DNA of 64,000 nucleotides from a virus (IMGVR_UViG_3300040810_000833:1-64000), one strand, 5' to 3'. Shown: positions 4,129 through 56,443, counted from the stretch's first letter. Made by a program: numbers and translations. The notes: generated from the sequence alone by a model not told the origin.

Positions 4129-4167
4129 TTACAATCATCACGAGCCTTGTGGTATTTTCAAATTACA

Positions 4168-4540: not shown

Positions 4541-4544
4541 GTCG

Positions 4545-5714: not shown

Positions 5715-5770
5715 CGATCGTCGTTTCGTTCCGGCTTGCATCAGCCAGACTGCCCCGGCAGGCAATCGGG
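5715..5770 (-). repeat. Family-C repeat copy C5 (3' part diverged)
   Basis: cgtttcgttccggcttgcatcagccagactgccccggcaggcaatcgggc. Confidence 0.7.
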
Positions 5771-6656: not shown

Positions 6657-6805
6657 TTTATTTTCCTTCTTGGGGGTATAATACTTTATCTTTTACTGAA
6701 AGTGGAAAAACATGAAAGCAATTCCAGAAAGCGGCGTCTCTGAAATGGTTAAAGCAGATTTATCTGTTCCAGACCCGCCAACAAATATAGCAATGGGAAT
6801 AATTA

Positions 6806-8075: not shown

Positions 8076-8349
8076 GACTTCTCTTTTTACAGAATTGTGG
8101 GATGATGGATTTTATGAGGAGTGAGATGAGTAGAACGCCATCAGGCAGGCAGGAGGCAAGAGTTCGCAGTACGTGTGACGGTTTTTCTTTATCCGAAGAC
8201 AGCCGAACTCCCATAACAAAGAAATCGTCTATATTTTATTTCCCCCTTGTGAGTATGTAGAGAAGCCAGCCGATCTCCTTTACTTGTTTAACAATGCATA
8301 GAAGAAGAAATGAAACTTCAGTCTAGTATCGCTTTAGAGAGGTTGCAGA

Positions 8350-8958: not shown

Positions 8959-10228
8959 TTTTTCAGTAAAAATAGGAAGGCGAAGTTTACTAAAGGCTGG
9001 ATTTCTTGCTGCTGCAATGCCAAAGATTTTCGCGGACATTAAGGATTTTGAGAGCGTTGAGGGTCCAGCCAAAAGTGTAATCTTTATCTATCTACCTGGC
9101 GGTATTGCCGCACAAGAAAGTTTTGACCCGAAACCATTAGCCCCTACTGAGTACAAGGGTGCTATGAGTAGCATCCAAACAAGTATTCCGGGTGTGTTTT
9201 TCAATGAAAAACTCGCAATGACATCAAAGCTTGCTGATAAGCTCACGATAATTCGAAGCATGACTCATGGAGAGGCTGCACATGAGCGTGGAACGCATAA
9301 TGTTTTTACTGGCTACAGACCGAGTCCAGCACTCAGCTATCCATCGATCGGCTCAGTTGTTAGTCATGAATTTGGCTCTAGAAACAATCTTCCCCCTTAT
9401 ATTTGCATTCCTAACAAACCAAATGAATTCGCTGGCACTGGTTATCTCAGTAGTTCCTATGGTGCTTTCAGTTTAGGTTCTGACCCCGCTAGAGATGACT
9501 TTAAAGTTAGGGATCTTGCAAGCGAAATTGGAAATGCGAGGTTCTCAAGACGTCGAAGCACGCTGGATTTGATAAACGGCGGCTTCATAGAAGAGAACAA
9601 AAACGCCGACAATGTCAACGCCATGAATTCATTTTACGAAAGGGCGTATGAGCTTATCTCAAGCGTGGAGGCACAAGAGGCATTTAAGCTAGAGAAAGAG
9701 TCCGCAGAGACGCGAGAAAGATACGGGAAAAACACAGCTGGAGCAAGAATGCTTCTTGCCCGCAGACTTGTAGAAGCTGGTGCAAGGTTTGTGACACTAA
9801 CATACGGAAGTTGGGATATGCATGACGATATCGCCAACGGAATTAACAAACAGATGCCGTCATTCGACCAAGGGTTTTCTGCCCTAATCTCCGATCTCTC
9901 TGATAGAGGTATGTTTGACTCTACGATGGTTTGTGTTGTTTCTGAGTTTGGCAGGACTCCAAAGATTAATAACACTTCTGGGAGAGATCATTGGCCCCGA
10001 GTATTTAGTTCAGTCCTCGCGGGCGGTGGATTTAAGGGCGGGATGGTGTATGGTAAATCAGACTCTACTGGTTCAGAGCCAGAAGAGAACGCCGTGGAAA
10101 TACCGCACTGGGCCGGAACTATCTACAGTCAAATTGGAATAAATCCAGATAAAGAGTTGATGGCTCCTGGTGATAGACCTATCGAAATAGTTGACTTCGC
10201 CAAGGTCATTAAAGAAATAATTCAATGA
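8951..10228 (+). CDS. DUF1501-family protein with a twin-arginine (Tat) signal
   Basis: RBS GGGAGG then ATG 8951; GRRSLLKAGFLAAAMP Tat motif; C-terminal RDHWP...GGGFKGGMVYGKSDSTGSEP typical of DUF1501 (sulfatase-like fold). Confidence 0.7.
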   Translation: MNDFSVKIGRRSLLKAGFLAAAMPKIFADIKDFESVEGPAKSVIFIYLPGGIAAQESFDPKPLAPTEYKGAMSSIQTSIPGVFFNEKLAMTSKLADKLTIIRSMTHGEAAHERGTHNVFTGYRPSPALSYPSIGSVVSHEFGSRNNLPPYICIPNKPNEFAGTGYLSSSYGAFSLGSDPARDDFKVRDLASEIGNARFSRRRSTLDLINGGFIEENKNADNVNAMNSFYERAYELISSVEAQEAFKLEKESAETRERYGKNTAGARMLLARRLVEAGARFVTLTYGSWDMHDDIANGINKQMPSFDQGFSALISDLSDRGMFDSTMVCVVSEFGRTPKINNTSGRDHWPRVFSSVLAGGGFKGGMVYGKSDSTGSEPEENAVEIPHWAGTIYSQIGINPDKELMAPGDRPIEIVDFAKVIKEIIQ

Positions 10229-10494
10229 GAAATTACAACTGCCCAGCATATAAAACGGCAAGATCTAAATCCCTAAGGAGGGACGGTAAATCTTGTCAAA
10301 TGCCGGGATGTTCCTCAAAAAAAAGGCTGCAGTCTCATCATATTATGACTTGGTCTGAAGCACCCTCACTTAGATTTGATGCTGATAACTTGATAACCCT
10401 ATGTAAGTCGTGCCATGATTCAATTAAGGGCCAAGAAGGCCACTATCAAGCACTTTTTATGGGTATAGTTCATGCAAATAATAAGAGACACTAG
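10225..10494 (+). CDS. HNH endonuclease (small)
   Basis: CQMPGC...SHHIMTWSE...DNLITLCKSCHDSIKG. Confidence 0.8.
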   Translation: MRNYNCPAYKTARSKSLRRDGKSCQMPGCSSKKRLQSHHIMTWSEAPSLRFDADNLITLCKSCHDSIKGQEGHYQALFMGIVHANNKRH

Positions 10495-10975
10495 AGAAAA
10501 GCAAGGCTGGGAATTTGTTTTCTACGACGACGTAGAATCAATAGTTTCAAAAAAGATAGACTGCGGAGACTACACGACAGCCTTACTAAAAGACGAGGTT
10601 GTGTTCGAAAGAAAGGCATCCGTTGTTGAAATTGCCACAAATTTAGGCATAACATCCAACAGGGAAAGATTCTACAGAGAGTGCGAAAGGATGAAGTCGT
10701 TAAAGCGGGCATACATCATTTGCGAATTCCAAGAGAATCAAGTTCTTTCATTTCCAACAGAGGATGACCGTGCCGTTATTGAAAGAGAGCGGAAGTTTTC
10801 AAAAAACAAAGAAGGGGTAAAGGTAAGATTAAACGGAAGATACCTAAGAAAACTCCTAGCAGACCTTGAGCGTAGCTACCCAAATATAGAAGTGGTATTT
10901 GCCGGTAGTAGAGATGCTGCGGAAAAGTTTACCCACGACATGCTAAAGTACTGGGAAAAAAGAAAGCTCTCCTAA
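10472..10975 (+). CDS. ERCC4-type (XPF/Mus81/Hef-like) nuclease domain protein
   Basis: IRDTREK ... DCGDY ... VVFERKAS ... NRERFYRECERM, matching the ERCC4 D-x-RE / GDY / ERK signature. Confidence 0.55.
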   Translation: MQIIRDTREKQGWEFVFYDDVESIVSKKIDCGDYTTALLKDEVVFERKASVVEIATNLGITSNRERFYRECERMKSLKRAYIICEFQENQVLSFPTEDDRAVIERERKFSKNKEGVKVRLNGRYLRKLLADLERSYPNIEVVFAGSRDAAEKFTHDMLKYWEKRKLS

Positions 10976-10976
10976 A

Positions 10977-11504
10977 ATGGAATGGATCTCTTCTTTATTC
11001 TATTCCCTCGCCAATTTTCTTCCTCGTCTTCTCAATCTAACAGAAGATATGGTATGTATAAGAATGAATGGCTCTAAACATAAAAGATTAAAGCCAGGAT
11101 ATCACATATACACCCCACTCATTCATGAAATAAGAACAGCGTACATAACTAGACAAGAACTAGACTTACCAGAGCAAATTCTTACCACTAAGGATCAACA
11201 GGCAGTACTGGTATCTGCCTCCCTTGTTTACCGTGTAGTAGATCCAGTTAAGGCACTGATTCAAACACAAAATTACTCAGATACCGTCATAGAAGTAGCA
11301 CAAAAGAGTGTTAAGTCCATGGTGACGCATAGCGATTTAAGAGACGTCATAGTGGAAAATGAAGACTTCGACGAAGAGTTTAGGTCTCGCATTATGTCCG
11401 ATATAGAGGAGTACGGACTGGAGATAGACGAGGCGTTCTTAACTTCAGCAGTTGCAACAAATCCATATCATGTATCTGGGCTATACATTAACATGAGTTC
11501 ATAA
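10977..11504 (+). CDS. SPFH/band-7 domain protein
   Basis: LKPGYHIYTPLIHEIR...TKDQQAVLVSASLVYRVVDPVKAL...VTHSDLRDVI pattern typical of stomatin/prohibitin-like domains. Confidence 0.5.
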   Translation: MEWISSLFYSLANFLPRLLNLTEDMVCIRMNGSKHKRLKPGYHIYTPLIHEIRTAYITRQELDLPEQILTTKDQQAVLVSASLVYRVVDPVKALIQTQNYSDTVIEVAQKSVKSMVTHSDLRDVIVENEDFDEEFRSRIMSDIEEYGLEIDEAFLTSAVATNPYHVSGLYINMSS

Positions 11505-13522
11505 TGTCAAAAAACAAACACAACCATAAGGCTGTAATCAGGCAGCTAAATGACGCTTGGTTGAATCTTAATGTTTCTCACGATTTAGTAATTAACCCAT
11601 TTGATAGACTGAGAACAGACGATCCTGATGAATTCTACAAGAGGCTGACCTGCCTCTTTATGAATCCTGATTACTTTTGTTTTGTCTGCAAGCATGTGCT
11701 AAACGTCGAGCTGTTGCCGATGCAGGCCTTGATACTGAGGGAAATGTGGATCAGAAAATTCCCGATGCTTGTCGGGAGTCGAGGTCTTGGAAAGACGTTC
11801 TTGCTGTCCCTATACTGCATGCTCCGTGCAGCACTAATGCCCGGAAGAAAAATTGTGGTCGTTGGTGCTGCCTTCCGTCAGTCGAAGTTTCTTCACGATT
11901 ACATGGAAACGATCTGGAAGAATGCTCCTGTACTCAGGGATATGTGCGACGGTAACAGCGGCCCTAGACGCGATGTCGACATGTGCAAAATGACTATCAA
12001 TGGCAGCACGATCGTCGCCCTGCCCATTGGTGATGGTCAGAAGATTAGAGGTCAGCGAGCTAATGATATCGTCGCTGACGAATTTGCTAGTATGTCAAGG
12101 GAAATCTTCGAGAATGTTATTGCTGGCTTTGCTGCTGTTTCTGCGTCTCCGGTGAGTAACGTGAAAATGATCGCGAAGGAGAAAATGGCTCAGGAAATAG
12201 GTTTTGATCTTTCTACTTTAACGTCAAAAAAACCAGAGCTTCAGAATGTAAGCAATCAAATCATACTGTCGGGAACCGCTTACTATGATTTCAATCACTT
12301 CTCTGAATACTGGAAAAGATGGAAGGCTATCATAGAGACTAAGGGTGATTACAAGGCTATATCAAACTCTGTCTTTAATGGAGAGCCTGTGCCCGAATCT
12401 TTTAATTGGCGTGATTATTCCATAATGAGAATACCTGTTGACCTTATCCCTAACGGCTTTATGGATGAAGGGCAAATCGCTAGATCTAAGGCCACTGTCC
12501 ATAATGGTATTTATCTTATGGAGTTTGGTGCGGTATTCACAAAAGACAGTCAAGGGTTCTTCAAAAGAAGCTTGATTGAGTCCTGCATTGGTACAGATCA
12601 GAGGCCTATACAGCTTCCTTCTGGGTCAGTATATTTTGACCCCCTTCTAAGGGGCGGTAAAGGCAAGAAGTATGTGATGGCTATTGACCCAGCCTCGGAA
12701 GTTGACAACTTTAGCATCATCATACTTGAGGTTCATCCAGACCATAGAAGGATTGTATATTGCTGGACAACGACGAGGAAAGACCACACAGAGAGAGTCA
12801 AGAAAGGTTTGACTAAAGATAATAACTTCTACTCTTACTGTGCTAGAAAAATAAGGGACTTGATGAAGCTGTTCTCAGTTGTCCATATTGCGATGGACTC
12901 GCAGGGCGGTGGCTACCAAGTTTCTGAGGCATTGCATGATTCATCCAAAATAGGTGATGGAGAATCGCCAATCTGGCCAGTTATAGATCCGGACGACCCG
13001 AAAGATACAGATGATGAGCAGGGACTTCATCTCTTAGAATTATGCCAGTTCGCAAAATATGATTGGTATAGGGAAGCCAATCACGGACTAAGGAAAGACT
13101 TTGAGGATCGAATATTGTTATTTCCAAGATTCGATCCAGTCACTATTGGGTTGTCTATAGAGCAGGACAAGGCAAATGATCGCGTTTACGATACGCTTGA
13201 AGACTGTGTACTTGAGATAGAGGACCTAAAAGACGAACTATCCCTTATCGAGATCACGCAGAGCGTTAACGGGAGAGAGCGATGGGATACTCCCGAAGTC
13301 AAGGTTGGTGTTGGCAAGAAAGAACGCATGAGAAAAGACAGGTACTCTGCTCTCATGATGGCAAACATGGCCGCAAGAACTATAAACTTCTATGAGAAAC
13401 CGGCAGAATACATTTCTTATGGTGGTTTTGCAAGACAGGAAAGCAGTAACTCAGACAAGGAACGCTCAACTTACAGTGGGCCACTGTGGTTTACACAGCA
13501 CATGAATGGGCTGTATGATTAA
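11504..13522 (+). CDS. terL: terminase large subunit
   Basis: Walker A VGSRGLGKTFL, Walker B IVADEFASM; 672 aa; directly upstream of the portal. Confidence 0.85.
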   Translation: MSKNKHNHKAVIRQLNDAWLNLNVSHDLVINPFDRLRTDDPDEFYKRLTCLFMNPDYFCFVCKHVLNVELLPMQALILREMWIRKFPMLVGSRGLGKTFLLSLYCMLRAALMPGRKIVVVGAAFRQSKFLHDYMETIWKNAPVLRDMCDGNSGPRRDVDMCKMTINGSTIVALPIGDGQKIRGQRANDIVADEFASMSREIFENVIAGFAAVSASPVSNVKMIAKEKMAQEIGFDLSTLTSKKPELQNVSNQIILSGTAYYDFNHFSEYWKRWKAIIETKGDYKAISNSVFNGEPVPESFNWRDYSIMRIPVDLIPNGFMDEGQIARSKATVHNGIYLMEFGAVFTKDSQGFFKRSLIESCIGTDQRPIQLPSGSVYFDPLLRGGKGKKYVMAIDPASEVDNFSIIILEVHPDHRRIVYCWTTTRKDHTERVKKGLTKDNNFYSYCARKIRDLMKLFSVVHIAMDSQGGGYQVSEALHDSSKIGDGESPIWPVIDPDDPKDTDDEQGLHLLELCQFAKYDWYREANHGLRKDFEDRILLFPRFDPVTIGLSIEQDKANDRVYDTLEDCVLEIEDLKDELSLIEITQSVNGRERWDTPEVKVGVGKKERMRKDRYSALMMANMAARTINFYEKPAEYISYGGFARQESSNSDKERSTYSGPLWFTQHMNGLYD

Positions 13523-44268: not shown

Positions 44269-44984
44269 TCTTTACCTTTCTTTATTTCTTCTGGAATTGG
44301 CTTTACGCCCTGCTTGTATTCATTGATTCTCTGTGTCATTTTCTTGGCGATTTCATGTGGTACGGCTTTTATTGTTGGGTATGTGTTTTCTCCGCTATTG
44401 ATAAACTGAACAACATCTACACCCAGCTTTTCGCACTGGCTTGTAATGTATCTTTCCTGATCCGCATTGATCAATCTATGGTCATCATCTGGTGATCTAT
44501 TGCTTCTAGCTCCCTCTTTTTCTGAGTGCTTCTTGTCTGTTAGTTTAGAGCATTCTTCTGCAGCCACTTGCCGTAATTTTAGTGCTTTTCTTAACGCTCT
44601 GGCTTCTGCCCTAGTGACCGCCATCGCAGCACCAAACACCTCAAAAGGAGAGTCTGTGTTATGGGCAGAGGAGTCGGCAGCGTCCGAGTAGACAACGGGT
44701 AGCGATTTATTGTCTGTCTGTATGGTAACTTCGTAAACGGCGAAGGTTTTTCCTATTGGTGTATCATCAGGATGATGAAATAGATTTTTAACTTCGCCTT
44801 TGACGATCGTACCAATCAGTAGTTCTGTAACCCTCCTCAATCCAGCGACTTTGGGTTTTGCGTCCCTTCCTTCCCCCACGAGTTCATCCGGAGCGAAAAA
44901 ACTCATTACGTGATCATTCCACTCCGGATCTGTCTGCAATATTTCCTTTTTGTTCTCTTCGTCAGATTCTGACTGCTTGCCCAT
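44265..44984 (-). CDS. hypothetical protein (239 aa)
   Basis: ORF, coupled. Confidence 0.4.
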   Translation of the reverse strand: MGKQSESDEENKKEILQTDPEWNDHVMSFFAPDELVGEGRDAKPKVAGLRRVTELLIGTIVKGEVKNLFHHPDDTPIGKTFAVYEVTIQTDNKSLPVVYSDAADSSAHNTDSPFEVFGAAMAVTRAEARALRKALKLRQVAAEECSKLTDKKHSEKEGARSNRSPDDDHRLINADQERYITSQCEKLGVDVVQFINSGENTYPTIKAVPHEIAKKMTQRINEYKQGVKPIPEEIKKGKE

Positions 44985-45813
44985 CCTTTACCTCGATTTC
45001 TATTAAACTGTCCTGTTCCTTCCCATCTGCAATAGCAGACACCTCTTGTATAATACATTGTAGCAGAATTGACATCTTTGTTCTTGAAATACTTTTGTCA
45101 ATTTGCCTGACTCTAAGTATTTTATATCCATGGCTTATCAGAATACCCTGTTTCGCCACGTCCGCTTGTTGTTGTTTTGTTAACTTTTCTTGGCCCCAGA
45201 TCGGCTCAAAGTGCTGCGGTCCATCAATCTCAATTGCGGTTCTTATTTCCGGAATGAATATGTCAACTTCAAGATTGCTACCGGGGGCGAGGCCTGACTT
45301 ATGAAATTCTACTTGATAGCCGTTATCCCGAAGACCCTCCATAATGAAACGCTCTGTTTTTGATCCTTCTTTACTCGCCCTTCTAACTTGCTCTAGTGCC
45401 AAAGCTCTAATTTCAGCCTGTTTTTCTGGACCTAGTTTTTTCCAGTTGTCTTTGCTGATCTGAGCCATTCGTTCCTTTTCGGCGTCAGTCATCCTGCTGT
45501 AGGCTTCTGCCCTAGCAGATCCTATGCTGTCCTTATGTTCTTGTGACAGCTTTTTTCCTTCCGTTGGATGCATGGCAGCACCAGACTCTAGGGCGACCTT
45601 TTGTGCGTCAGAGTAGCTTCTTCGATCGATACCCAAAAAGTTTAGTGCCCGCAATACTTTTTGCGGGTAGGTGTTAAGCTTCTTGGCGATTTGGTAGCTG
45701 CTCATGTTTTGATGAACATACATCTCTGTAATAACTAATCTGTTTTTTCTAGCAAATTCCATAACTTCTCCAGTTCGAATGATTCTAATATTCCATGAGG
45801 CAATCGCCCACAA
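44962..45813 (-). CDS. HTH + DUF559/Vsr-like (PD-(D/E)xK) endonuclease domain protein, homing-endonuclease-like
   Basis: N-terminal HTH (SSYQIAKKLNTYPQKVLRALNFLGI); C-terminal EVDIFIPEIRTAIEIDGPQHF ... GYKILRVRQ, which resembles the DUF559 pattern D..IP....aIE.DG..H / ..V.R. Confidence 0.45.
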   Translation of the reverse strand: MWAIASWNIRIIRTGEVMEFARKNRLVITEMYVHQNMSSYQIAKKLNTYPQKVLRALNFLGIDRRSYSDAQKVALESGAAMHPTEGKKLSQEHKDSIGSARAEAYSRMTDAEKERMAQISKDNWKKLGPEKQAEIRALALEQVRRASKEGSKTERFIMEGLRDNGYQVEFHKSGLAPGSNLEVDIFIPEIRTAIEIDGPQHFEPIWGQEKLTKQQQADVAKQGILISHGYKILRVRQIDKSISRTKMSILLQCIIQEVSAIADGKEQDSLIEIEVKDGQAVRI

Positions 45814-48899: not shown

Positions 48900-50542
48900 T
48901 TCTCCTCGCAGTCTATAAGTTTTGATCTATCGTTTCTTACTGATTCCCAGATGTTGTAATTATCAAGCCTTCTTCTAAAGAAGTTAAGTAGCTTTTCTCT
49001 TGTTAGCGGAGTTTTTACTGAGTCCGAAATTGGTGAGTTTTCTGTCGAAAAGAATCCGTCAAAAGACCCTCCAGTAACCCCTCTATTGAGATCCCTATGA
49101 AGGGACGCGACAAACTGAGAATTTTTATGCGACTCATTATATAGATAATTGTCAGACACGAACTGCATAAACGCAGCATTTGATAATTCATTCACAGGAT
49201 TGTTTGGCGTCTGAATGATCCGAGTCGGCTGCTTCCAATCGGCATACTCAGAACGATCTATTATATCAGACCAAACCCCCGCTGATTTTTCCCAGCTGTA
49301 GTTTTCTTCAAATTGACGCCTAGTTGATCTCGCTAGTTCTATCTGCTGATCTTTTGTCTTTTTTAAGAAGAACAACCTAAATGTATTCAGAATCGATTCT
49401 TTTTCTGGAGTCGCTCTATAACACCCCGTCTCTAATTCTTTGTATAGGGATTGTACCTTTAGGGGATATGCACCAGCCCTGTAAATAAGGTCATCCATCG
49501 CTGAATATTCAACAGATGCTAATGGAATTCCACAAGCCGCTGCTTCAACCTGCGGCAGGCCAAACCCTTCAGAGTTAGCACATTGAATATAGAAGTCGAA
49601 CAAGTTATAGATCTTTGCCAGCGTCTCATCGCTAACTCCAGACCCGACACTGGATGGTCTTGAGTCAAACTTTTTACATTTCCCGCACCGCCTTGCGGCA
49701 TCTCTAAAGTAGCAAACCTCTAAGTTTTTGCACGAACTGCAAACATAAGAAAACAAAACGCGAGACGAGATATTGTATTCGTTTAGTAGACTAGCTATAT
49801 TCCAGCCGTTATCAGGATAGCTTGTATGGCAGTATAAATAAGTGTTGGTCAACCCTGATGAATGAATGTATTCGGAAAAAGCTTCAAACAGTAAAGGATA
49901 GAGTTTCCGTCTTTGGTTACGCATGACGGTGCCAATTATTTTAACATTATTGTCAACGCCGAATTCTTCACGTATAGACGCCTTGTCCATAGGCCTGAAA
50001 CAATCAGATGCTGACGGAGAGGCCACTCCACATAGGTTCAGAGAGCTTCCAGCTTGTTTTTTTAGGACGTTGCTCGCCCATTCTGAATAGGTTAGTAGGT
50101 AATCAACATCACTAAATACACTCAGCCACTCATTATTTTGGGGGGCTGCGTCGACAGTAGGCATCCATGCCCACTGAAAGATTCGCCTAAACGGAGAGTG
50201 GTATATGAATGAATCCATCCAGTAATCACGGATCGAAAGAACAATATCTGGTTCAAAGTCTAGGCACACCCTCTCAAAACGCCAAGACCCGAACTGGTTA
50301 ACCTTTGACGAGTCGTATACACTGCAATGCTCTTTGTTGGACCCCTCTGGCATATTTGGGTAGTTACGCCATTTTATTGAACTTCTTCTGTCGTCATCAA
50401 CGCCGCCATAGCCAGAAAGCTCTGCCAGGTCGTATTTGCCAGAGTCGTGCAACCTATTCATGATTTCTCTTGTATAGGTCGCATAACCCGTACTAAGATA
50501 ACTAGCCTCTGTAACAAAGAGTACTCGTTTTTTTCTAGGCAT
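48887..50542 (-). CDS. glycosyltransferase family 1/4 (GT-B) with an inserted Cys-rich segment
   Basis: EGFGLPQVEAAACGIPLASV (E-x7-E motif), KRVLFVTEASYLSTGYATYT N-terminus; CSSCKNLEVC...CGKCKKF insertion. Confidence 0.75.
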   Translation of the reverse strand: MPRKKRVLFVTEASYLSTGYATYTREIMNRLHDSGKYDLAELSGYGGVDDDRRSSIKWRNYPNMPEGSNKEHCSVYDSSKVNQFGSWRFERVCLDFEPDIVLSIRDYWMDSFIYHSPFRRIFQWAWMPTVDAAPQNNEWLSVFSDVDYLLTYSEWASNVLKKQAGSSLNLCGVASPSASDCFRPMDKASIREEFGVDNNVKIIGTVMRNQRRKLYPLLFEAFSEYIHSSGLTNTYLYCHTSYPDNGWNIASLLNEYNISSRVLFSYVCSSCKNLEVCYFRDAARRCGKCKKFDSRPSSVGSGVSDETLAKIYNLFDFYIQCANSEGFGLPQVEAAACGIPLASVEYSAMDDLIYRAGAYPLKVQSLYKELETGCYRATPEKESILNTFRLFFLKKTKDQQIELARSTRRQFEENYSWEKSAGVWSDIIDRSEYADWKQPTRIIQTPNNPVNELSNAAFMQFVSDNYLYNESHKNSQFVASLHRDLNRGVTGGSFDGFFSTENSPISDSVKTPLTREKLLNFFRRRLDNYNIWESVRNDRSKLIDCEEKWLN

Positions 50543-51005
50543 GTTGCTTGATTCTTATCTTTGCTCTCTTGATTAATTGCGAAACTCTTGTATTGCTTAT
50601 CCCAAGGTTTGAAGCTACTTCTCTATGCGTGAGCCCGTTGTATTTCATAGTCACCACACGCCTTAGATCCGGTTCGGCGTCAGGGCCAACAAAATCTTCA
50701 AGATCGAGATGCTCTTCCGAATAACCACAATTAAAGGCGGATTCGATTGATAAAATTTTCTTGGAAGATTTGCCTGCTCTTGCAATTTCTTTGAGCATCG
50801 CGTTTCTAGATACATGGTAAACAAATGTTGTTTCTGCCCCCCTCGATCTGTCATATTTTTCCACGTTTTCAATTAAAGCCAAAAAGCCAGACTGGGCCAA
50901 GTCGTCGGGATGGTTCGAGTCATCACTTAGCTTGTGTGCAATACTCCATACTAGGTCACTATGTCTTTCAATTAACTCATGTGATTTCATTAAAAATCTC
51001 CTCAA
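50535..51005 (-). CDS. ECF-type sigma-70 family sigma factor
   Basis: Region 2 (DLAQSGFLALIENVEKYD) and region 4 HTH (REVASNLGISNTRVSQLIKRAKIRIK). Confidence 0.75.
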   Translation of the reverse strand: MRRFLMKSHELIERHSDLVWSIAHKLSDDSNHPDDLAQSGFLALIENVEKYDRSRGAETTFVYHVSRNAMLKEIARAGKSSKKILSIESAFNCGYSEEHLDLEDFVGPDAEPDLRRVVTMKYNGLTHREVASNLGISNTRVSQLIKRAKIRIKQHA

Positions 51006-51322
51006 ATAATTTCAAAATCATTTATCCTGAAGGTAACTATTCCTTCTTCAACTTTTGCCGTAGCATCTTTTATCAATATCCTGTCTCCCGGAATCAAATT
51101 TTCCTCGATAAAATCTGCTGCTGAACCCCAAATCGTGCAATCTATAATAGACTCGTCGGTTCTTCTTGCTTGATTTGCCCGTTTATTGAAAACCCTTACC
51201 GAAAACAATAGCCCGTCACACTGCTCTCCCTGTGCAAGCTCTTCATCTGATAGCGGTGTTCCATCTCCATGGATGGCTGTTTGACTCCCAACATGTTCAC
51301 CAAAAAATGTACATCTGTTCAT
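51002..51322 (-). CDS. OB-fold nucleic-acid-binding protein (SSB-like or detached polymerase OB domain)
   Basis: IDCTIWGSAADFIEENLIPGDRILIKDA layout resembles an SSB OB core; own RBS (TAGGAGGctgatATG). Confidence 0.35.
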   Translation of the reverse strand: MNRCTFFGEHVGSQTAIHGDGTPLSDEELAQGEQCDGLLFSVRVFNKRANQARRTDESIIDCTIWGSAADFIEENLIPGDRILIKDATAKVEEGIVTFRINDFEII

Positions 51323-51331
51323 ATCAGCCTC

Positions 51332-52894
51332 CTAAATTTCAAAAATGCGATCAACTATGAATGAATTTCTTTCGGCGTCCTTTATCTCGCCAGAGAGTAG
51401 CACGGTAGACCTCTCGTATATTATAGCCTTGTTCTGCTCGTACAAGTCTGGAAATATTACAATATTCTCCAGTTCTCCAGAATTGTCTTCCGCAGAAGCA
51501 AAAGCCATCAAATCCCCATTGCTTGTTCTGTGCTCTCGGAGTCTTGTAATCATTGCGGCGACGATGCAATTTCCACGTCTACCTTCGTTCACCTGTAGAC
51601 ATGTAGCGTTTGCGTGAGACGCATTTGAGCACGCCGTTAACTCCGAGTAGTTTATTGCATGACCTAAAAGACGTTCTTCTTCTCGGGCGTAAGTAACTGG
51701 ACTATCGCTCAGGTCTCTTCCGGGATTCTGGAGTCTCAACAGAATCTCTTGAACCTTATTCATTCTGCTGATACGTGAGATAAATCCACCCTCTTTCTTT
51801 AGACCTTTCCCTAAGAAACGCTCAACAAGTTCAGTTACAGACATGTCAAGGACGTTGAAGTATTCGCGAATGGAATTAATTTCTCCGTTAGTTAAGCCTT
51901 CGCTTATGCACTCAAAATCATGAAGCATTCGTGTCCTACTCTGACCAAAACCAGAAAATGCACCAGAGGAGATAAGACTTTTGACAGCCCGTTTATTTAC
52001 ATCTGTAAGGACGTGCATTAAAAGGAGGGTCCAATTGAATCTTTCTACCGGAATTCCAATGTCTTTAATTTTTTTTCTCAATTTGGCAACGTCTGAAGAC
52101 CCAACGTTTTTTATATTGCATAAACCAAAGGATATTATATGCTCGCCATCCTCGATCGACATCGTGAAATCTTCTTCGAGAAGTCTAATACTTGGACCTC
52201 TAAACAAAATCCCCTCCGACATAGCCGCGAGGATAAGCTGTCTTTTCTCAAGGTCTGGGTTGATTTTTTCCTTTGCGTCACGTAGCCACTCCCTAGTAAA
52301 TTTAAGAAACCTATAGTATCTTAGATATGCTGACCAGTAAGAAATTTTTGCATAAGCCACTGCGTGTGATTTATTGAATGAGTATCTAGCTGATTTCTCA
52401 ATCATGTCAAACACTTTGGTAGAAACATCGTTCGGTATACCATTTGAGGAGGCACCCTCTAGAAATTTAACCCTGATTTGACTCATTAGGTCAGCTTTCT
52501 TTTTACCGATCGCCTTTCTGAGATCATCCGCCTCCTTTAGGTTAAAACCAGCCATTTTCACGGCGATTTCCATCGCTTGCTCCTGATACACAATGACCCC
52601 ATATGTATTATCTACAACAGAGTCAATTGACGGGTGCAGTGATGGAACTTCATCCTTACCGTTCTTTCTGTCGGCGTAATGCTGCGTCATGGACTTTCCG
52701 TCCTGCTTCGCCTTTAATGTTCCAGGCCTTATGACACTAATTACATCCGCTAGTTCAAGTATTGATGTCGGCTTGATTGCTTTGCACCAGTGCTTACCAA
52801 GGCTCCCCTCAATTTGAAAACAGCCTTTTACGCGACCCTCGCCAAACATTCTCCATACATCTTGATTAGATTCATCTGCTTCGGTAATATTCAT
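51332..52894 (-). CDS. dnaE: DNA polymerase III alpha subunit (DnaE), C-terminal fragment (fingers / beta-binding region)
   Basis: KGCFQIEGSLGK...VISVIRPGTLKAK...TYGVIVYQEQAMEIA...LRKAIGKKK aligns with E. coli DnaE AVFQLESRGMKDL...ALFRPGP...YGIILYQEQVMQIA...LRRAMGKKK. Confidence 0.85.
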   Translation of the reverse strand: MNITEADESNQDVWRMFGEGRVKGCFQIEGSLGKHWCKAIKPTSILELADVISVIRPGTLKAKQDGKSMTQHYADRKNGKDEVPSLHPSIDSVVDNTYGVIVYQEQAMEIAVKMAGFNLKEADDLRKAIGKKKADLMSQIRVKFLEGASSNGIPNDVSTKVFDMIEKSARYSFNKSHAVAYAKISYWSAYLRYYRFLKFTREWLRDAKEKINPDLEKRQLILAAMSEGILFRGPSIRLLEEDFTMSIEDGEHIISFGLCNIKNVGSSDVAKLRKKIKDIGIPVERFNWTLLLMHVLTDVNKRAVKSLISSGAFSGFGQSRTRMLHDFECISEGLTNGEINSIREYFNVLDMSVTELVERFLGKGLKKEGGFISRISRMNKVQEILLRLQNPGRDLSDSPVTYAREEERLLGHAINYSELTACSNASHANATCLQVNEGRRGNCIVAAMITRLREHRTSNGDLMAFASAEDNSGELENIVIFPDLYEQNKAIIYERSTVLLSGEIKDAERNSFIVDRIFEI

Positions 52895-53562
52895 TTAATC
52901 GCCCTGAGTGAATTCTTAAAGGTAAGCCCGGATGCAAATCTTCTCAGATGGTGTTGCGTTCTACAAAAAACTTCTGCGGTCATTATTACGTCAGACATTG
53001 CGTCATGTGCAACACCCTTCGCATAACCCATATGTCCGCGAATCAGGTTATCGGCAGATAGCGAGTTTACTTCCTTGTTGTTTTCGAACAGGCAAAACAT
53101 AATTGACAAAAGGTCAACGCTATAAAACCTATTGAAGATATTTGGCCTTCCGTCCTTCTCTGGACCAAACTCTCTACACAACCTAGCTGCAATTACGGAG
53201 TCAAACTTATCTATATTGTACCCAACGGAAATTGGAGTATTCCAGTCGTTTTTCTTATAATTGTGTTCATCCACATAGGCCGCAAAGTTTTGCCAAACAG
53301 ACTTTGGTGACGGTGCATCCCTGAGCATCTCCTCCGTCTTTCCATGTATATTTATCGACTCTTGTGTGAGTGGATCAACACCCATTTCTGAACATTTCGC
53401 ATGATCAAACTCTGGTCTGATTAAAGACTGGAACTCAGACGCCTGTTTAATTTCAAGTTTTCGCCCATTTATCGCAACTGCTGCAATTTGCACCGCTTGG
53501 GTTGTGCTTGGGTTCGCTGATGTAGTTTCAAAGTCGTAAACAATATAATCTCTGTAATTCAC
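52891..53562 (-). CDS. DnaQ-like 3'-5' exonuclease (DEDDh, epsilon-like)
   Basis: Exo I YDFETT; Exo III H-x-A-x-x-D (GVAHDAMSDV); 223 aa. Confidence 0.8.
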   Translation of the reverse strand: MNYRDYIVYDFETTSANPSTTQAVQIAAVAINGRKLEIKQASEFQSLIRPEFDHAKCSEMGVDPLTQESINIHGKTEEMLRDAPSPKSVWQNFAAYVDEHNYKKNDWNTPISVGYNIDKFDSVIAARLCREFGPEKDGRPNIFNRFYSVDLLSIMFCLFENNKEVNSLSADNLIRGHMGYAKGVAHDAMSDVIMTAEVFCRTQHHLRRFASGLTFKNSLRAIK

Positions 53563-53572
53563 AAATTACCCC

Positions 53573-55390
53573 TTATTCTTCTGATGTTCTTGCTATCTTT
53601 CCAAGTATTGATAACCCGAGGATATCAAACTTAACACAACCAATAGATTCTAAGTCGTTCATTTCCATACCGGCAATCTTCTCAGAGCCTCTAGACGCCT
53701 TTACCATTGGACATATATCATCTAAATTGTCTGATGCAATTACAACGCCAGCGGCATGCTTTCCCTGTGTCTTAAAGATGCCTTCCATACGCATGGCTTG
53801 ATTGAACTCTCTTGCATATTGCCCCTCTATGACACCCTCGCTATTGATCCAGCAATAGTCGGCCAATGACTCCCTATCATTTTCTAGCGTCCATCTAATA
53901 ACTGAAGGGTCTTCCATTTCCTCCAGAAGGTCTGAAATGGCAGACTCCGACTGAATAGCCTCTGTTATTCTATTCATTTCGTCGAACGTGCATGACTCGT
54001 TTGTTCTCAAAACCTCTTTTAATATTGATCTTCCAGCAAGCCTTCCAAATGTTAGCATTTGGCAGACCCTTGAGTCTCCGTATTTTCCTCTAAGGTACTT
54101 AATTACTTCGTCTCTATATTCTGGAGGAAAGTCGACATCAATATCAGGAAGTGATACATGATCCTCTGTATTTCTACCCTCATTATAAAACCGCTCAAAA
54201 ATCAAACCATATTCGATTGGATCAATTAACGTAATACCCGTCAGGTAACAAACTAACGATCCACCTCCAGAACCCCTGCCGGGTCCAACTAAGCACCCAA
54301 GACGTTTGAAGTGATTCACGTAGTCTTGTACAATCAGAAAGTACCCAGCCAGTTCCGCCTTCTCAATTACGGAAAGTTCGCTAAGTACCCTGTCCCTATA
54401 GATACTAATCTTTTCCTTGGGTATTTTGTTGAGCAGTAACTTTTTCCATCCATCTCTGCAGAGTTGCTTCAGGTATTCGTTCTCCGATTCGCCGTTCGGC
54501 GTTTCAAAGTGCGGAAGGCGTGGGCGTGAGAGTATTTCAATGTCTTCACACAACCCAACAACCTCTTCAAGGTTTGCTCTTGCTGTCTCGTTGTACCACT
54601 CGGTAATCTGAGCCATTGATTTGATATTGTAAGAACTTCTTCTGATAAACTTCAGTAGGTTTATATCTTGGGTCTCGTCTATTTTTTCAGCCAGTTTTCG
54701 TAGAGTTGTCTTCAGTCTTACACACACAAGAACTCTGTGATCAACAGCGTCTGTTCGATCGGGGTAGTAACTTGACGTATCTGGTATGACGCAATCTAAG
54801 CCATGCAACATGTCGCCAAGAACCGAGATCACTGGAAAGCTATCGTCACCAGGGCTTAAATCTATTTCGACGTAATAGTGTGAGAATATAGATCTTGCAT
54901 TAGAAATATAGGCGTCAAGATCCCATTCGCTGCTTATACAGCCGCTAACAGAGTCTGCGTCTAGTGCGTTGAAGACGCACTCCAAGCTGCTAAACATATT
55001 GTGGAAAAGTCGACTTCCGACATACCCATCGATGCACACAAAATTTGATGGTGTTATCGATGACAGCAGATTATCAAACGGTATTTTTGGGCATTTGTCA
55101 TGATTTTCTTCTGAGTTAGCAATTGAAGTGACGTTGAGTAACTCACGCCACGCCTCTTTATTCCTGCATATCAGCGTGATTGAACCACCGTCAGACAATA
55201 CAATTTCTGACCCTATGATTGGCTTGATTCCGTTCTTTTTACAGCATTGAATAAACTTTACGCAGCCGCTGATTGTCGCGAAGTCTGTCAGACCTGCATA
55301 GCAATACCCAAGCTCTTTGGCTTTCCCAACTATCTGTTCGACCCTTGACGTCGACAACGTTAAAGAGTAGTGACTTTTGTTTCTAAGCAT
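53573..55390 (-). CDS. dnaE: DNA polymerase III alpha subunit (DnaE), N-terminal fragment (PHP + palm/thumb)
   Basis: PHP-like N-terminus (LTDFATISGCVKFIQCCKKNGIKPIIGSEI); catalytic PDIDVDF motif; ends at the conserved KFDILGLSILG segment. Confidence 0.85.
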   Translation of the reverse strand: MLRNKSHYSLTLSTSRVEQIVGKAKELGYCYAGLTDFATISGCVKFIQCCKKNGIKPIIGSEIVLSDGGSITLICRNKEAWRELLNVTSIANSEENHDKCPKIPFDNLLSSITPSNFVCIDGYVGSRLFHNMFSSLECVFNALDADSVSGCISSEWDLDAYISNARSIFSHYYVEIDLSPGDDSFPVISVLGDMLHGLDCVIPDTSSYYPDRTDAVDHRVLVCVRLKTTLRKLAEKIDETQDINLLKFIRRSSYNIKSMAQITEWYNETARANLEEVVGLCEDIEILSRPRLPHFETPNGESENEYLKQLCRDGWKKLLLNKIPKEKISIYRDRVLSELSVIEKAELAGYFLIVQDYVNHFKRLGCLVGPGRGSGGGSLVCYLTGITLIDPIEYGLIFERFYNEGRNTEDHVSLPDIDVDFPPEYRDEVIKYLRGKYGDSRVCQMLTFGRLAGRSILKEVLRTNESCTFDEMNRITEAIQSESAISDLLEEMEDPSVIRWTLENDRESLADYCWINSEGVIEGQYAREFNQAMRMEGIFKTQGKHAAGVVIASDNLDDICPMVKASRGSEKIAGMEMNDLESIGCVKFDILGLSILGKIARTSEE

Positions 55391-55432
55391 AGTTTTCTCG
55401 AATTCTTGTTGGTTTGTACTTTATTGTGTGAT

Positions 55433-56443
55433 TCATTTGTCGCTTTCCTCAAGCCTTCCACCGCCAGCACCATACTTGCCAATTTTATTCAGATTGGCGT
55501 GATTGGCGACTACATAATCCATCCCTTTTGATCGTATCATCCTGTGGAAGTGTTGGCAAGTACTCATTCCAGTATTTTCATATTCTTGGGAAAATCTACA
55601 CAATCGTCGGCACTTGAAGTCAGTATGACTAGGAGATATTTGACTCGGGAGTTTTTTTCTCTTTATTTCTTCGAACTTCTCTCGTAGCATCTGTTCAGCT
55701 TTTTCGTAGTCTTCATCACCAAAAACAATATCGAAAACGCCGCCGTGATTAACATAATAAATGGAAACATAAAACGTCCTATCTGGGAAAATATTTCTTA
55801 ATGCATAGTAGTATAGCAGCAGCTGCTTGTCTTCACACAGGTCTTCATATGTTTTTTCCTTTCCTGTCGCCCAGTTCTTTCTTTGTCCGGTCTTGTAGTC
55901 AAGAACCTGAAAATACATACCTTCTTCGCGTATAATTACGTCAACCGTCCCCTTGAGAGATAAGTATCCATCAAAAACAGTATCGCCAACCTCGTAATGG
56001 TACTTGGCCCAATCTTTTCTTATTTCAAAATCAAAGAATTGCTCTGTCGCCTCTATGTTTTGATTTCTTGGGTCCATCACACCACCATTAAATGCTAACG
56101 CCTTCTCTACCCATCGAACACATTGGCGAAAGTCGGCCTCTTCAAGGCCAACGTCTTCCTCGTGGCTTTTGTAGTAATCAAAACAAACCCTTGTTACAAA
56201 ATCAATATTGTCGCATTCAGAAAAAGTCATATCCTGAATATCGTCGTTTTTTAGTTTTCTCTTCCTGTTTCTCTGGGCTATGGATTTATCTGCAAGAACC
56301 TGCATAACGCGATGAAAAATTGTTCCCATCACCGCCTTTTTGTTGGTTTTGTCTTTCATCCCAAGGACGTATTGGAAAAAGTATTTCATTTGACACATTT
56401 CGTAGGTGCCTAGAGATGAAGACCTATGGTAACAAATTATCAT
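55433..56443 (-). CDS. Cas4/RecB-family PD-(D/E)xK exonuclease with Fe-S cluster cysteines
   Basis: VLDYKTGQRK (DYKTG), QLLLYYYAL (QhxxY motif), N-terminal Cys plus C-terminal C-x4-C-x14-C (CRRLCRFSQEYENTGMSTC). Confidence 0.65.
   Translation of the reverse strand: MIICYHRSSSLGTYEMCQMKYFFQYVLGMKDKTNKKAVMGTIFHRVMQVLADKSIAQRNRKRKLKNDDIQDMTFSECDNIDFVTRVCFDYYKSHEEDVGLEEADFRQCVRWVEKALAFNGGVMDPRNQNIEATEQFFDFEIRKDWAKYHYEVGDTVFDGYLSLKGTVDVIIREEGMYFQVLDYKTGQRKNWATGKEKTYEDLCEDKQLLLYYYALRNIFPDRTFYVSIYYVNHGGVFDIVFGDEDYEKAEQMLREKFEEIKRKKLPSQISPSHTDFKCRRLCRFSQEYENTGMSTCQHFHRMIRSKGMDYVVANHANLNKIGKYGAGGGRLEESDK

What the first reader, a model, noticed from the sequence alone, without database searches (positions are those of the whole stretch)
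51332..55390. DnaE (Pol III alpha) split into two genes within the palm domain, with a DnaQ-like proofreading exonuclease gene in the gap
The N-fragment (605 aa) ends at the conserved KFD(I/F)LGL motif, and the C-fragment (520 aa) begins just before the G(C/V)FQ(I/L)E(G/S) motif. The break is therefore inside the palm. Two catalytic Asp are on one polypeptide (PDIDVDF), and the region that holds the third acidic residue in E. coli is on the other. Precisely at the break there is a separate-frame, translationally coupled gene for a complete epsilon-like DEDDh exonuclease. All three ORFs overlap or abut (53573/53562; 52894/52891). No intein residues flank the break. The arrangement resembles a PolC-like design, with the exonuclease intercalated in the polymerase, but made from separate polypeptides. 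The active site would have to be assembled in trans.
Basis: partly seen in the sequence, partly recalled or inferred. Interest (0 to 1): 0.7.

Follow-up and report, generated by a model that had tools for sequence, protein, structure and literature searches.

The report
Two-piece phage DnaE with embedded proofreader gene
This phage, like roughly 200 related uncultured phage contigs, encodes its bacterial-type replicative DNA polymerase as two separate proteins with the proofreading exonuclease gene between them, a conserved intein-free design that I did not find described in the papers searched.

Summary
On the minus strand lie DnaE-N (53573-55390, 605 aa: PHP, palm, thumb), a DEDDh exonuclease (52891-53562, 223 aa) and DnaE-C (51332-52894, 520 aa: fingers, HhH, probable OB). 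A 10-nt spacer and a 4-nt ATGA overlap separate them.

It is not a sequencing error. The N-Exo-C order recurs in 186 of 209 related viral-contig loci at 30-97% identity. About 141 of the 150 best 50%-identity cluster representatives end 12-35 residues after the KxDxLG motif. All three genes are under purifying selection (dN/dS 0.05-0.24).

No intein, intron or conserved frame relation could rejoin the halves. The two fragments together align collinearly with unsplit DnaE, with nothing missing.

The third catalytic Asp (E. coli D555, Taq D618) is D589 in KFDILGL, so the whole Asp triad sits on DnaE-N. The cut lies about 10-25 residues into the fingers domain, not inside the palm. What is supplied in trans is the fingers domain, including the Arg/Lys pair that binds dNTP.

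The PHP metal site is degenerate, which fits a separate proofreader. The PolC analogy is only loose.

Verdict: a new variant of known kinds. I found no description of it in the papers searched.

The parts
53573..55390 (-). DnaE-N: PHP domain plus palm and thumb of a DnaE-type Pol III alpha (605 aa). It carries all three catalytic Asp.
   Evidence: ORF. Pfam PHP and DNA_pol3_alpha 1-260/260. Maps to positions 9-570 of the 1146-position NCBIfam DnaE model PRK05673. Aligns to Taq and E. coli alpha. dN/dS 0.048 against L001.
54137..54145 (-). Codons for D416-I-D418 of the PDIDVDF motif, the first two catalytic Asp.
   Evidence: Align to Taq D463/D465. D418 and D420 are invariant and D416 is at least 90% conserved in 49 N fragments.
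53624..53626 (-). Codon for D589 in KFDILGL, the third catalytic Asp (Taq D618, E. coli D555).
   Evidence: Alignment. Invariant in alignment A1. E. coli D401/D403/D555 per PMC3919608. Codon read directly.
53563..53572 (-). 10-nt spacer between the DnaE-N stop (TAA) and the Exo GTG start. It has an AAGGGG Shine-Dalgarno-like run.
   Evidence: Sequence. In most relatives of the L001-L026 set the Exo ATG instead overlaps the end of DnaE-N by 11-14 nt.
52891..53562 (-). DnaQ-like DEDDh 3'-5' exonuclease, 223 aa. Catalytic residues are D10, E12, D121, H186 and D191.
   Evidence: Pfam RNase_T. PHROG 'DNA polymerase exonuclease subunit'. The five residues are at least 99% conserved in 167 homologues. 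AlphaFold pLDDT 93. Foldseek matches to DEDDh exonucleases with TM about 0.7. dN/dS 0.24.
52891..52894 (-). ATGA overlap of the Exo stop codon and the DnaE-C start codon.
   Evidence: Sequence. Overlaps or short gaps at this junction recur in relatives.
51332..52894 (-). DnaE-C: fingers, HhH (beta-binding-domain region) and probable OB fold of Pol III alpha, 520 aa.
   Evidence: Pfam DNA_pol3_finger 21-166/166 and HHH_6. Maps to positions 585-1050/1146 of PRK05673. Aligns to Taq 656-958 and weakly to the OB region. dN/dS 0.23.
52514..52519 (-). Codons for R126-K127 of the LRKAIGKKK motif, the fingers residues equivalent to E. coli R709/R710 that contact the incoming dNTP.
   Evidence: Align to Taq R766/R767. 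Role of E. coli R709/R710 as stated in PMC4374717. The motif is more than 90% conserved in 121 C fragments.
55433..56443 (-). PD-(D/E)XK nuclease gene, a conserved upstream neighbour of the module.
   Evidence: Pfam PDDEXK_1. A homologue was detected upstream of DnaE-N in nearly all loci whose flank reaches far enough.
51002..51322 (-). Small SSB-like OB-fold protein gene, a conserved downstream neighbour.
   Evidence: Weak Pfam SSB match below the curated cut-off. The homologous gene in the Tara loci carries PF00436. Syntenic in the L001-L026 set.

Best explanation
This is a functional, evolutionarily old three-gene replicase core of an uncultured tailed-phage lineage. The DnaE-type Pol III alpha is made as two polypeptides. 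The cut falls in a length-variable stretch just after the palm/fingers boundary. DnaE-N holds a catalytically dead PHP domain, the palm with the complete Asp triad, and the thumb. DnaE-C holds the fingers with the dNTP-binding basic residues, the HhH DNA-binding domain and the OB fold. The two pieces associate non-covalently to rebuild a normal alpha fold. The gene between them encodes the proofreading 3'-5' exonuclease, the functional equivalent of epsilon, which is needed because the PHP metal site is lost. The three cistrons are co-transcribed and probably translationally coupled, giving matched amounts and assembly near the ribosome.

Shown here: the anatomy, its conservation, purifying selection, intact catalytic residues, and the absence of inteins, introns or any conserved frame relation.

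Inferred: non-covalent assembly, the proofreading role, and translational coupling.
For: - ORFs and domains are as described.
- The Asp triad is on DnaE-N and the fingers Arg/Lys on DnaE-C.
- Concatenated N+C aligns collinearly with unsplit relatives P0037, P0075, P0140, P0019 and P0133, with no missing or extra residues.
- The N-Exo-C order occurs in 186 of 209 viral-contig loci. Another 15 are cut by contig ends but are consistent with it. The Tara Oceans contigs show full synteny: DnaB, primase, DNMK, PD-(D/E)XK, N, Exo, C, SSB, sigma factor, glycosyltransferases.
- About 135-141 of the 150 best 50%-cluster representatives stop 12-35 aa after KxDxLG.
- dN/dS is 0.048 for N, 0.24 for Exo and 0.23 for C.
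- The DEDDh residues are at least 99% conserved in 167 exonucleases, and the exonuclease model is confident.
- Positions aligned to Mtb PHP residues H8, H10, D17 and the His of TDH, which I take from memory to be metal ligands, are R3, K5, L12 and F37.
- Junction architecture varies between lineages (overlaps of 4-17 nt, short gaps, extra small ORFs), yet three separate ORFs are always kept.
- There is experimental precedent that split phage enzymes work in trans: T4-like gp43 43A/43B and Aeh1 NrdA (PMC2988022).
Against: - There is no expression, proteomic or biochemical evidence. Every relative is metagenomic.
- I found no recognisable clamp-binding motif in DnaE-C, and no clamp or clamp-loader gene in the window. 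How processivity is achieved is unknown.
- The exonuclease scores below every curated NCBIfam epsilon cut-off, and epsilon is not among the 50 best Foldseek matches listed. It is DnaQ-like, not a demonstrated epsilon orthologue.
- The window covers only part of the genome, so a second polymerase elsewhere cannot be excluded.
Confidence: 0.8

Rival explanations
1. Sequencing or assembly artefact, or a recent pseudogene: two indels broke a normal dnaE.
For: A few relatives are unsplit (P0037 1102 aa, P0075 1151 aa, P0140 1133 aa). The nearest GenBank phage sequences are also unsplit (1164 aa).
Against: A complete 223-aa exonuclease gene, not a frameshift, separates the halves. The arrangement recurs in 186 independent metagenomic loci at 30-97% identity, with different junction sequences. 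dN/dS is well below 1 in all three ORFs.
Confidence: 0.01
2. The halves are rejoined covalently by a split intein, by RNA splicing of an intron that carries the Exo ORF, or by ribosomal bypass or frameshifting.
For: DnaE is the classic host of split inteins. In this same phage clade, L113/L114 carry a split intein plus a Vsr-like homing endonuclease at another dnaE site. L001, L002 and L036 carry an insertion at RPG|T59, shown to be an HNH intein in L001 and by sequence in L002. In the window, DnaE-N and DnaE-C happen to be in the same reading frame.
Against: Pfam finds no Hint/intein domain on DnaE-N or DnaE-C. The N tail and C head align residue-for-residue with unsplit DnaE, leaving no room for intein halves. 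Rfam finds nothing in 50500-56000 even at E<=1. Non-coding space is only 10 nt. The frame relation of N and C is not conserved in relatives. Bypassing about 680 nt would be unprecedented.
Confidence: 0.03
3. The exonuclease gene is a passenger. It was a selfish or accidental insertion that split dnaE and has no functional tie to the polymerase, or the fragments act independently.
For: The gap behaves as an insertion hot spot. It holds an Endonuclease VII-type gene in L011/L012, a conserved 70-85 aa ORF in about 133 loci, and more than 5 kb of metabolic genes in L085. One representative has DnaE-N fused to a cpYpsA domain. In L113 the Exo gene sits upstream of an alpha that is unsplit at this site.
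Against: Exo stays adjacent to dnaE in both arrangements. Its DEDDh site is at least 99% conserved. The PHP proofreading site is lost, so a separate proofreader is functionally expected. It has no homing-endonuclease fold or motifs. DnaE-N and DnaE-C co-occur in every locus long enough to show both, apart from the insertion cases.
Confidence: 0.08
4. The module is an accessory repair or translesion polymerase, and the phage replicates with another enzyme (its own elsewhere in the genome, or the host's).
For: Only 64 kb of a genome that may exceed 100 kb is visible. Jumbo phages carrying a minimal split Pol III also encode a family B replicase (PMC7824862). No tau-binding C-terminal domain or clamp motif was found.
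Against: The module lies in a conserved block with the DnaB helicase, DnaG-type primase, SSB-like protein, RecA and dNMP kinase. It has full DnaE architecture plus a proofreader, unlike error-prone DnaE2. No other polymerase was seen in the window.
Confidence: 0.08

Closest known systems
E. coli-type Pol III core (alpha-epsilon-theta)
   Same: A DnaE-type alpha with a non-catalytic PHP domain, sharing the LR... and TDF substitutions seen in E. coli. A separate DEDDh proofreading subunit. Most relatives also encode a third small protein of 70-85 aa next to the exonuclease gene.
   Different: Alpha is two polypeptides. The genes are contiguous and coupled rather than scattered. The exonuclease scores below the epsilon family cut-offs. 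The small ORF has no Pfam match, including to theta, and is absent from the window. No tau-binding domain or recognisable clamp motif was found.
PolC of Firmicutes
   Same: A DnaQ-like exonuclease coding sequence lies inside the polymerase coding region.
   Different: In PolC the exonuclease is a domain of the same chain inserted within the PHP domain, and the OB fold is N-terminal (PMC3919608). Here the exonuclease is a separate gene at the palm/fingers boundary. DnaE-N and DnaE-C match DnaE models far better than PolC models.
Cyanobacterial split DnaE and metagenomic 'fractured genes' (split intein with or without a free-standing homing endonuclease; Dassa et al. 2009, PMC2677866)
   Same: dnaE is encoded as two genes. 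In fractured genes another gene sits between the halves. Relatives L113/L114 are true examples at another site.
   Different: There are no intein halves at this break, so no protein ligation. The intervening gene is a DEDDh exonuclease, not a homing endonuclease. The break site is different.
Split family B polymerase gp43 (43A/43B) of Aeromonas phages 25 and 44RR, and split NrdA of phage Aeh1 (reviewed in PMC2988022)
   Same: An essential phage replication enzyme is cut into two cistrons by inserted DNA. The polypeptides reassemble non-covalently and are active.
   Different: The polymerase family is different (B, not C). The insert there is a homing endonuclease or an untranslated spacer. Those splits are confined to a few phages, whereas this one is fixed across a very large clade.
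Minimal split Pol III alpha module of group 2.2 jumbo phages (Iyer et al. 2021, PMC7824862)
   Same: A C-family catalytic module is divided into two proteins that are predicted to reconstitute the enzyme.
   Different: That version is minimal, lacking the PHP, HhH and OB domains. Its genes are far apart, it accompanies a family B replicase, and it has no associated exonuclease gene. The version here is a full-length DnaE architecture.

Membership tests
DnaE-type DNA polymerase III alpha (C-family) | N-terminal PHP domain | tested here: met
   Pfam PHP E=3.9e-18 on DnaE-N residues 2-129. The metal ligands are largely replaced.
DnaE-type DNA polymerase III alpha (C-family) | Pol-beta-like palm with three catalytic Asp (E. 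coli D401, D403, D555) | tested here: met
   D416, D418 and D589 align to Taq D463, D465 and D618. They are invariant or nearly invariant in 49 homologues. Reference residues from PMC3919608.
DnaE-type DNA polymerase III alpha (C-family) | Fingers domain with the GxFQxE, RPG, YQEQ, LRxAxGKKK and FNKSH motifs | tested here: met
   All are on DnaE-C. Pfam DNA_pol3_finger E=7e-40. Motif conservation shown.
DnaE-type DNA polymerase III alpha (C-family) | HhH / beta-binding domain followed by a C-terminal OB fold | tested here: inconclusive
   HHH_6 is met (E=5.9e-8). The OB fold is seen only as a weak alignment of residues 442-510 to the Taq OB region. Unsplit relatives show Pfam tRNA_anti-codon OB matches. 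No clamp-binding motif was recognised.
DnaE-type DNA polymerase III alpha (C-family) | Single polypeptide reaching the curated full-length score (NCBIfam DnaE equivalogs) | tested here: not met
   There are two polypeptides. Against PRK05673 (cut-off 1002) N scores 354.6 bits and C 268.4 bits. Only the sum for the superfamily model TIGR00594 (335.9+248.2) would exceed its 434 cut-off.
DnaQ / epsilon proofreading exonuclease | DEDDh catalytic motifs ExoI, ExoII and ExoIII | tested here: met
   D10, E12, D121, H186 and D191 are at least 99% conserved in 167 sequences. Pfam RNase_T E=7e-15.
DnaQ / epsilon proofreading exonuclease | DnaQ-like RNase H-type fold | tested here: met
   AlphaFold model pLDDT 93, pTM 0.90. 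Foldseek hits to DinG-N, ExoI, RNase T, DnaQ domains and the PolC exonuclease domain, E about 1e-10, TM about 0.7.
DnaQ / epsilon proofreading exonuclease | Curated epsilon family score (TIGR00573, TIGR01406, PRK models) | tested here: not met
   The best matches are 29-39 bits against cut-offs of 71-266. This is a superfamily member, not a demonstrated epsilon orthologue.
DnaQ / epsilon proofreading exonuclease | C-terminal segment that binds the alpha PHP domain, plus a clamp-binding motif | not testable with these tools
   A conserved C-terminal tail (...RKNFKNAF in relatives, TFKNSL in the window) exists. Its partner is unknown.
PolC-type polymerase | Exonuclease domain inserted in the PHP domain of the same polypeptide, with an N-terminal OB fold | tested here: not met
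   The exonuclease is a separate ORF located after the palm. PolC models score only 26-48 bits. PolC architecture per PMC3919608.
Split-intein 'fractured gene' (Dassa et al. 2009) | N- and C-intein halves flanking the break | tested here: not met
   No Hint/intein Pfam hit on DnaE-N or DnaE-C. Collinear alignment with unsplit DnaE leaves no extra residues.
Split-intein 'fractured gene' (Dassa et al. 2009) | Free-standing homing endonuclease gene between the halves | tested here: not met
   The intervening gene is a DEDDh exonuclease. For contrast, L113 has a NUMOD3/DUF559 endonuclease between split-intein halves at another site.
Endonuclease-split phage genes (gp43 43A/43B, Aeh1 nrdA) | Contiguous gene cut into two cistrons whose products reassemble | tested here: inconclusive
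   The two-cistron structure is met. Reassembly cannot be tested computationally here. Precedent is in PMC2988022.
Minimal split Pol III of jumbo phages (Iyer et al. 2021) | Only the nucleotidyltransferase and template-binding subdomains, encoded by distant genes, alongside a PolB | tested here: not met
   Here the full PHP, palm, thumb, fingers and HhH architecture is present and the genes are adjacent. Description from PMC7824862.

The most novel reading that the evidence does not exclude
An obligately multi-piece C-family replicase has been the fixed, ancestral state of a very large uncultured phage clade with marine representatives. Contigs reach about 240 kb, and some relatives are binned with Flavobacteriales MAGs. 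The piece order is DnaE-N, then a small 70-85 aa protein in most lineages, then the DnaQ-like exonuclease, then DnaE-C. No intein is involved. Gene order would mirror assembly order: the PHP-bearing N piece recruits the exonuclease before the fingers piece closes the active site. The few unsplit relatives would be secondary re-fusions in which the small-ORF/Exo cassette moved upstream. This would be the first natural intein-free split of Pol III alpha, and it would offer a ready-made system for asking how palm and fingers communicate.
Probability: 0.45. Interest if true: 0.65.

Novelty: new variant of a known kind. Interest (0 to 1): 0.55.

Why it matters
Pol III alpha is one of the best-studied replicases, and it is normally a single chain of about 1,100-1,200 residues. 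The only natural splits I know of or found are healed by inteins (cyanobacteria, 'fractured genes') or concern a minimal module in jumbo phages.

A widespread, selected, intein-free cut at the palm/fingers boundary, with the proofreader gene in the gap, has several consequences:
- It shows that this boundary is a natural permissive site.
- It gives a natural two-piece enzyme for studying fingers closure and polymerase-exonuclease coupling.
- It marks a large phage clade by a simple gene-order signature, which is useful for annotation. Gene callers will label these ORFs as 'partial' DnaE.
- It shows that this dnaE locus attracts inteins and homing endonucleases.

It also corrects the tempting but wrong idea that the catalytic triad itself is divided.

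Tried and rejected
- Megablast of the region against GenBank phages found no match. tblastn found only relatives at 30% identity or less, so no cultured representative could be named.
- The Croceibacter phage P2559S exonuclease hit has no adjacent dnaE, so it is irrelevant.
- An Rfam scan for introns and ribozymes across 50500-56000 found nothing at E<=1.
- Promoter and terminator scans gave nothing above shuffled expectation and no terminator at the junctions.
- I looked for a beta-clamp-binding motif in DnaE-C and found none that is conserved. The conserved Exo C-terminal tail resembles a clamp motif only loosely, so I make no claim about it.
- I looked for a homologue of the conserved small gap ORF in the window. 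The only hit was unconvincing (E=0.0018).
- Pfam finds nothing for the small ORF, including theta.
- A viral-contig search with unsplit P0140 found no relatives. Relatives of unsplit P0075 all have matches spanning about 0.9 kb more than the query, and those I classified are split.
- The tree is neighbour-joining without support values, so the polarity of split versus re-fusion is tentative.
- Literature searches found no description of this arrangement. The library lacks most subscription journals, so absence is not proof.

Full report
**1. What is in the window**

On the minus strand there are three consecutive ORFs:
- 53573-55390, 605 aa, here called DnaE-N.
- 52891-53562, 223 aa with a GTG start, here called Exo.
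- 51332-52894, 520 aa, here called DnaE-C.

The DnaE-N stop (TAA) is followed by ten bases (ggggtaattt) containing a Shine-Dalgarno-like run, and then the Exo GTG. The Exo stop and the DnaE-C start overlap as ATGA.

Pfam places a PHP domain and a complete DNA_pol3_alpha model (1-260 of 260) on DnaE-N. It places RNase_T on Exo, and DNA_pol3_finger (profile positions 21-166) plus HHH_6 on DnaE-C. PHROGs and NCBIfam agree. DnaE-N covers positions 9-570 and DnaE-C positions 585-1050 of a 1146-position DnaE model.

**2. Where exactly the cut is**

Alignment to solved Pol III alpha structures shows DnaE-N residue 596 on Taq 625 and E. coli 562. DnaE-C residue 14 falls on Taq 656, and residue 16 on E. 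coli 599.

The two fragments joined end to end align collinearly with unsplit relatives (P0037, P0075, P0140, P0019, P0133). No residues are missing or added. The cut falls in a stretch whose length varies among those relatives.

The catalytic aspartates of E. coli alpha are D401, D403 and D555 (PMC3919608). In the Taq alignment these are D463, D465 and D618. They correspond to D416, D418 and D589 of DnaE-N, and D589 is the Asp of KFDILGL. These positions are invariant or nearly so in 49 N fragments.

The fingers are supplied in trans. They include R126/K127 of the LRKAIGKKK motif, which align to Taq R766/R767. They correspond by motif to E. coli R709/R710, which contact the incoming dNTP according to PMC4374717. 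FNKSH and the other universal fingers motifs are also on DnaE-C, and all are conserved in 121 C fragments. The cut is best described as lying about 10-25 residues into the fingers domain, not inside the palm.

**3. Not an artefact**

A search of IMG/VR with Exo gave 26 loci. All those long enough to show both flanks have the N-Exo-C order, at 44-92% Exo identity.

A search with an alignment of divergent N fragments matched more than 586 stretches. The 80 loci kept, at 40-56% N identity, almost all show PD-(D/E)XK, N, Exo, C. Searches starting from the rare unsplit relatives again returned mostly split loci.

The overall classification of 209 loci, a few of them duplicate contigs, is:
- 186 have N-Exo-C.
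- 15 are cut by a contig end but are consistent with it.
- 4 have other genes inserted after N.
- 2 (L037, L040) have N and Exo but no DnaE-C match in the flank held.
- 2 have Exo upstream of an alpha that is unsplit at this site.

Tara Oceans contigs show the whole module in synteny with the window.

Independently, an exhaustive HMMER search of 1.8 billion cluster representatives found that about 135-141 of the 150 best hits (35-53% identity) are 560-670 aa proteins ending 12-35 residues after KxDxLG. Some are about 1000 aa because they carry inteins.

Against the closest relative, L001, dN/dS is 0.048 for DnaE-N, 0.24 for Exo and 0.23 for DnaE-C. Junction sequences differ between lineages, with overlaps of 4-17 nt, short spacers or extra small ORFs. 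Three separate reading frames are always kept.

**4. No covalent rejoining**

- Neither fragment has a Hint/intein domain, and the collinear alignment leaves no room for intein halves.
- Rfam finds no intron or other RNA family.
- Only 10 non-coding bases exist in the window's locus.
- DnaE-N and DnaE-C share a reading frame in the window, but not in relatives.

Trans-splicing, RNA splicing and ribosomal bypass are therefore very unlikely. Non-covalent assembly is the remaining explanation. It has experimental precedent in split gp43 and NrdA of T4-like phages (PMC2988022).

**5. The gene in the gap**

Exo has the five DEDDh residues D10, E12, D121, H186 and D191, each at least 99% conserved in 167 homologues spanning 30-92% identity. 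Its AlphaFold model is confident, with pLDDT 93. The model matches DEDDh exonucleases, including DnaQ domains and the PolC exonuclease domain.

It scores below every curated epsilon cut-off. I therefore call it DnaQ-like rather than an epsilon orthologue.

All 116 homologous clusters are stand-alone proteins of about 226-230 aa. None is fused to a polymerase.

The PHP domain of DnaE-N has R3, K5, L12 and F37 where M. tuberculosis DnaE1 has His, His, Asp and His. It shares the LR... and TDF substitutions of E. coli alpha. That the Mtb PHP is the active proofreader and that these aligned residues are metal ligands is from my own knowledge. PMC3919608 documents the nine-residue site and its decay in Proteobacteria and Bacteroidetes. 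A dead PHP site makes a separate proofreader functionally expected.

**6. Evolution and surroundings**

The gene block contains RecA, DnaB, a DnaG-type primase, a dNMP kinase, a PD-(D/E)XK nuclease, N-Exo-C, an SSB-like protein, a sigma factor and a glycosyltransferase. Structural genes on the other strand mark a tailed phage. No GenBank phage is closer than about 30% identity, and the nearest ones have an unsplit 1164-aa DnaE.

An outgroup-rooted neighbour-joining tree puts the few unsplit relatives in two small clades nested among split ones (no support values). In L113, which is unsplit at this site, a small ORF plus Exo lie directly upstream of dnaE. The simplest reading is one ancient split followed by a few re-fusions through a single rearrangement. 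This is tentative.

The locus is a hot spot for mobile elements:
- An insertion at RPG|T59 of DnaE-C in L001, L002 and L036. It is an HNH-containing intein by Pfam in L001 and by sequence in L002.
- An Endonuclease VII-type gene between Exo and DnaE-C in L011/L012.
- A split intein plus a Vsr-like endonuclease in L113/L114.
- LAGLIDADG inteins in N fragments.
- A further ATGA-coupled split of DnaE-C in L022.

These are documented. Other phage lineages split dnaE elsewhere (L028; the PHROG families).

**7. Comparison with what is known**

The module works most like an E. coli-type Pol III core, with alpha, a separate DEDDh proofreader and perhaps a small third subunit in relatives, but with alpha in two chains.

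It resembles PolC only in that exonuclease coding sequence is embedded in polymerase coding sequence. The insertion point and the covalent status both differ.

It differs from cyanobacterial split DnaE and from 'fractured genes' (PMC2677866) in lacking inteins and a homing endonuclease. It differs from the minimal split Pol III of jumbo phages (PMC7824862) in having the full DnaE architecture and adjacent genes.

Three full-text searches found no description of this arrangement. The library is incomplete, so I rate it a new variant of a known kind rather than claiming priority.

**8. Limits**

Everything about assembly, activity and coupling is inferred. I found no clamp-binding motif, clamp or clamp loader. 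The host is unknown; relatives are binned with Flavobacteriales, SAR202 and Pirellulaceae MAGs, which is only a weak hint. The window shows only part of the genome.

Noticed in passing
L001 6843-7646; also L002 and L036. The empty site in the window is T59 of DnaE-C, 52718-52720.: The closest relative (92-97% identical) carries a 268-aa in-frame intein (Cys1 ... His-Asn | Cys+1) with an HNH endonuclease domain, inserted at the RPG|T/C motif of the fingers. The window has the uninvaded allele, with Thr in place of the +1 Cys.
   Followed up: partly
L012 (and L011), about 6675-7085: A 136-aa Endonuclease VII-type (HNH-like) free-standing gene sits between Exo and DnaE-C. It is probably a homing endonuclease using the junction as its landing site.
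   Followed up: partly
L113/L114 4064-9687: An alternative arrangement: an 83-aa ORF, then Exo, then a DnaE that is continuous across the palm/fingers boundary. This DnaE is 'fractured' at the position of the FNKSH motif (here SFNR|C) by a split intein, with a NUMOD3/DUF559 (Vsr-like) endonuclease gene between the halves. It is a textbook Dassa-type fractured gene.
   Followed up: partly
L030 5750-6004, L085 6899-7126, L113 4064-4315, and about 133 loci in all: A conserved 70-85 aa ORF lies between DnaE-N and Exo in most distant relatives (consensus ...LSIC.INDFY...YQVHS..FS.LYEDIDEA.DKF.EI+RKI+). It has no Pfam family and no convincing homologue in the window. It could be a fourth, theta-like subunit.
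   Followed up: partly
L022 6678-8254: DnaE-C is split again at about residue 283, between the fingers and the HhH/OB part. There is an AAGGAG Shine-Dalgarno sequence and an ATGA stop/start overlap. This is either a three-piece alpha or a single frameshift error.
   Followed up: no
L085 (also L086, L091) 6899-11200: After DnaE-N and the small ORF come more than 4 kb of ORFs that, by their sequences alone (no domain search run), look like metabolic genes: a glyoxalase-like protein, an aldehyde dehydrogenase-like protein, an amidinotransferase-like protein and an aminotransferase-like protein. No Exo or DnaE-C match lies within the 5 kb of downstream flank held.
   Followed up: no
L028 (NCBI GCA_040384025.1, 131-kb contig) 6001-12657: A phage with a 41%-identical Exo splits dnaE at a different point. 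A 350-aa piece (PHP plus the start of the palm) and a 790-aa piece are separated by eight small genes, and Exo lies upstream. PHROG families phrog_13169 and phrog_12219 suggest this second split type is also recurrent.
   Followed up: no
Protein P0049 (762 aa, from the representative search): An N fragment ending at the usual break is fused to a circularly permuted YpsA (SLOG) domain. Either a different gene occupies the gap or this is a gene-call fusion.
   Followed up: no
window 44962-45813 (-): A 283-aa ORF has weak DUF559 / MTES_1575 (Vsr-like endonuclease) matches. It may be a free-standing homing endonuclease of the family seen in fractured genes.
   Followed up: no
window 1-6000: GC content is 0.48-0.53 here against about 0.42-0.45 elsewhere, and there are few long ORFs. 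The composition differs from the rest of the window.
   Followed up: no
Exo C-terminus: window 52894-52960, and homologues: The last ~10 residues form a conserved basic/aromatic tail ([KR]KNFKNAF in most relatives, GLTFKNSL in the window) at the extreme C-terminus. It is a candidate docking peptide for the PHP domain or a clamp. Its similarity to clamp-binding motifs is loose.
   Followed up: partly
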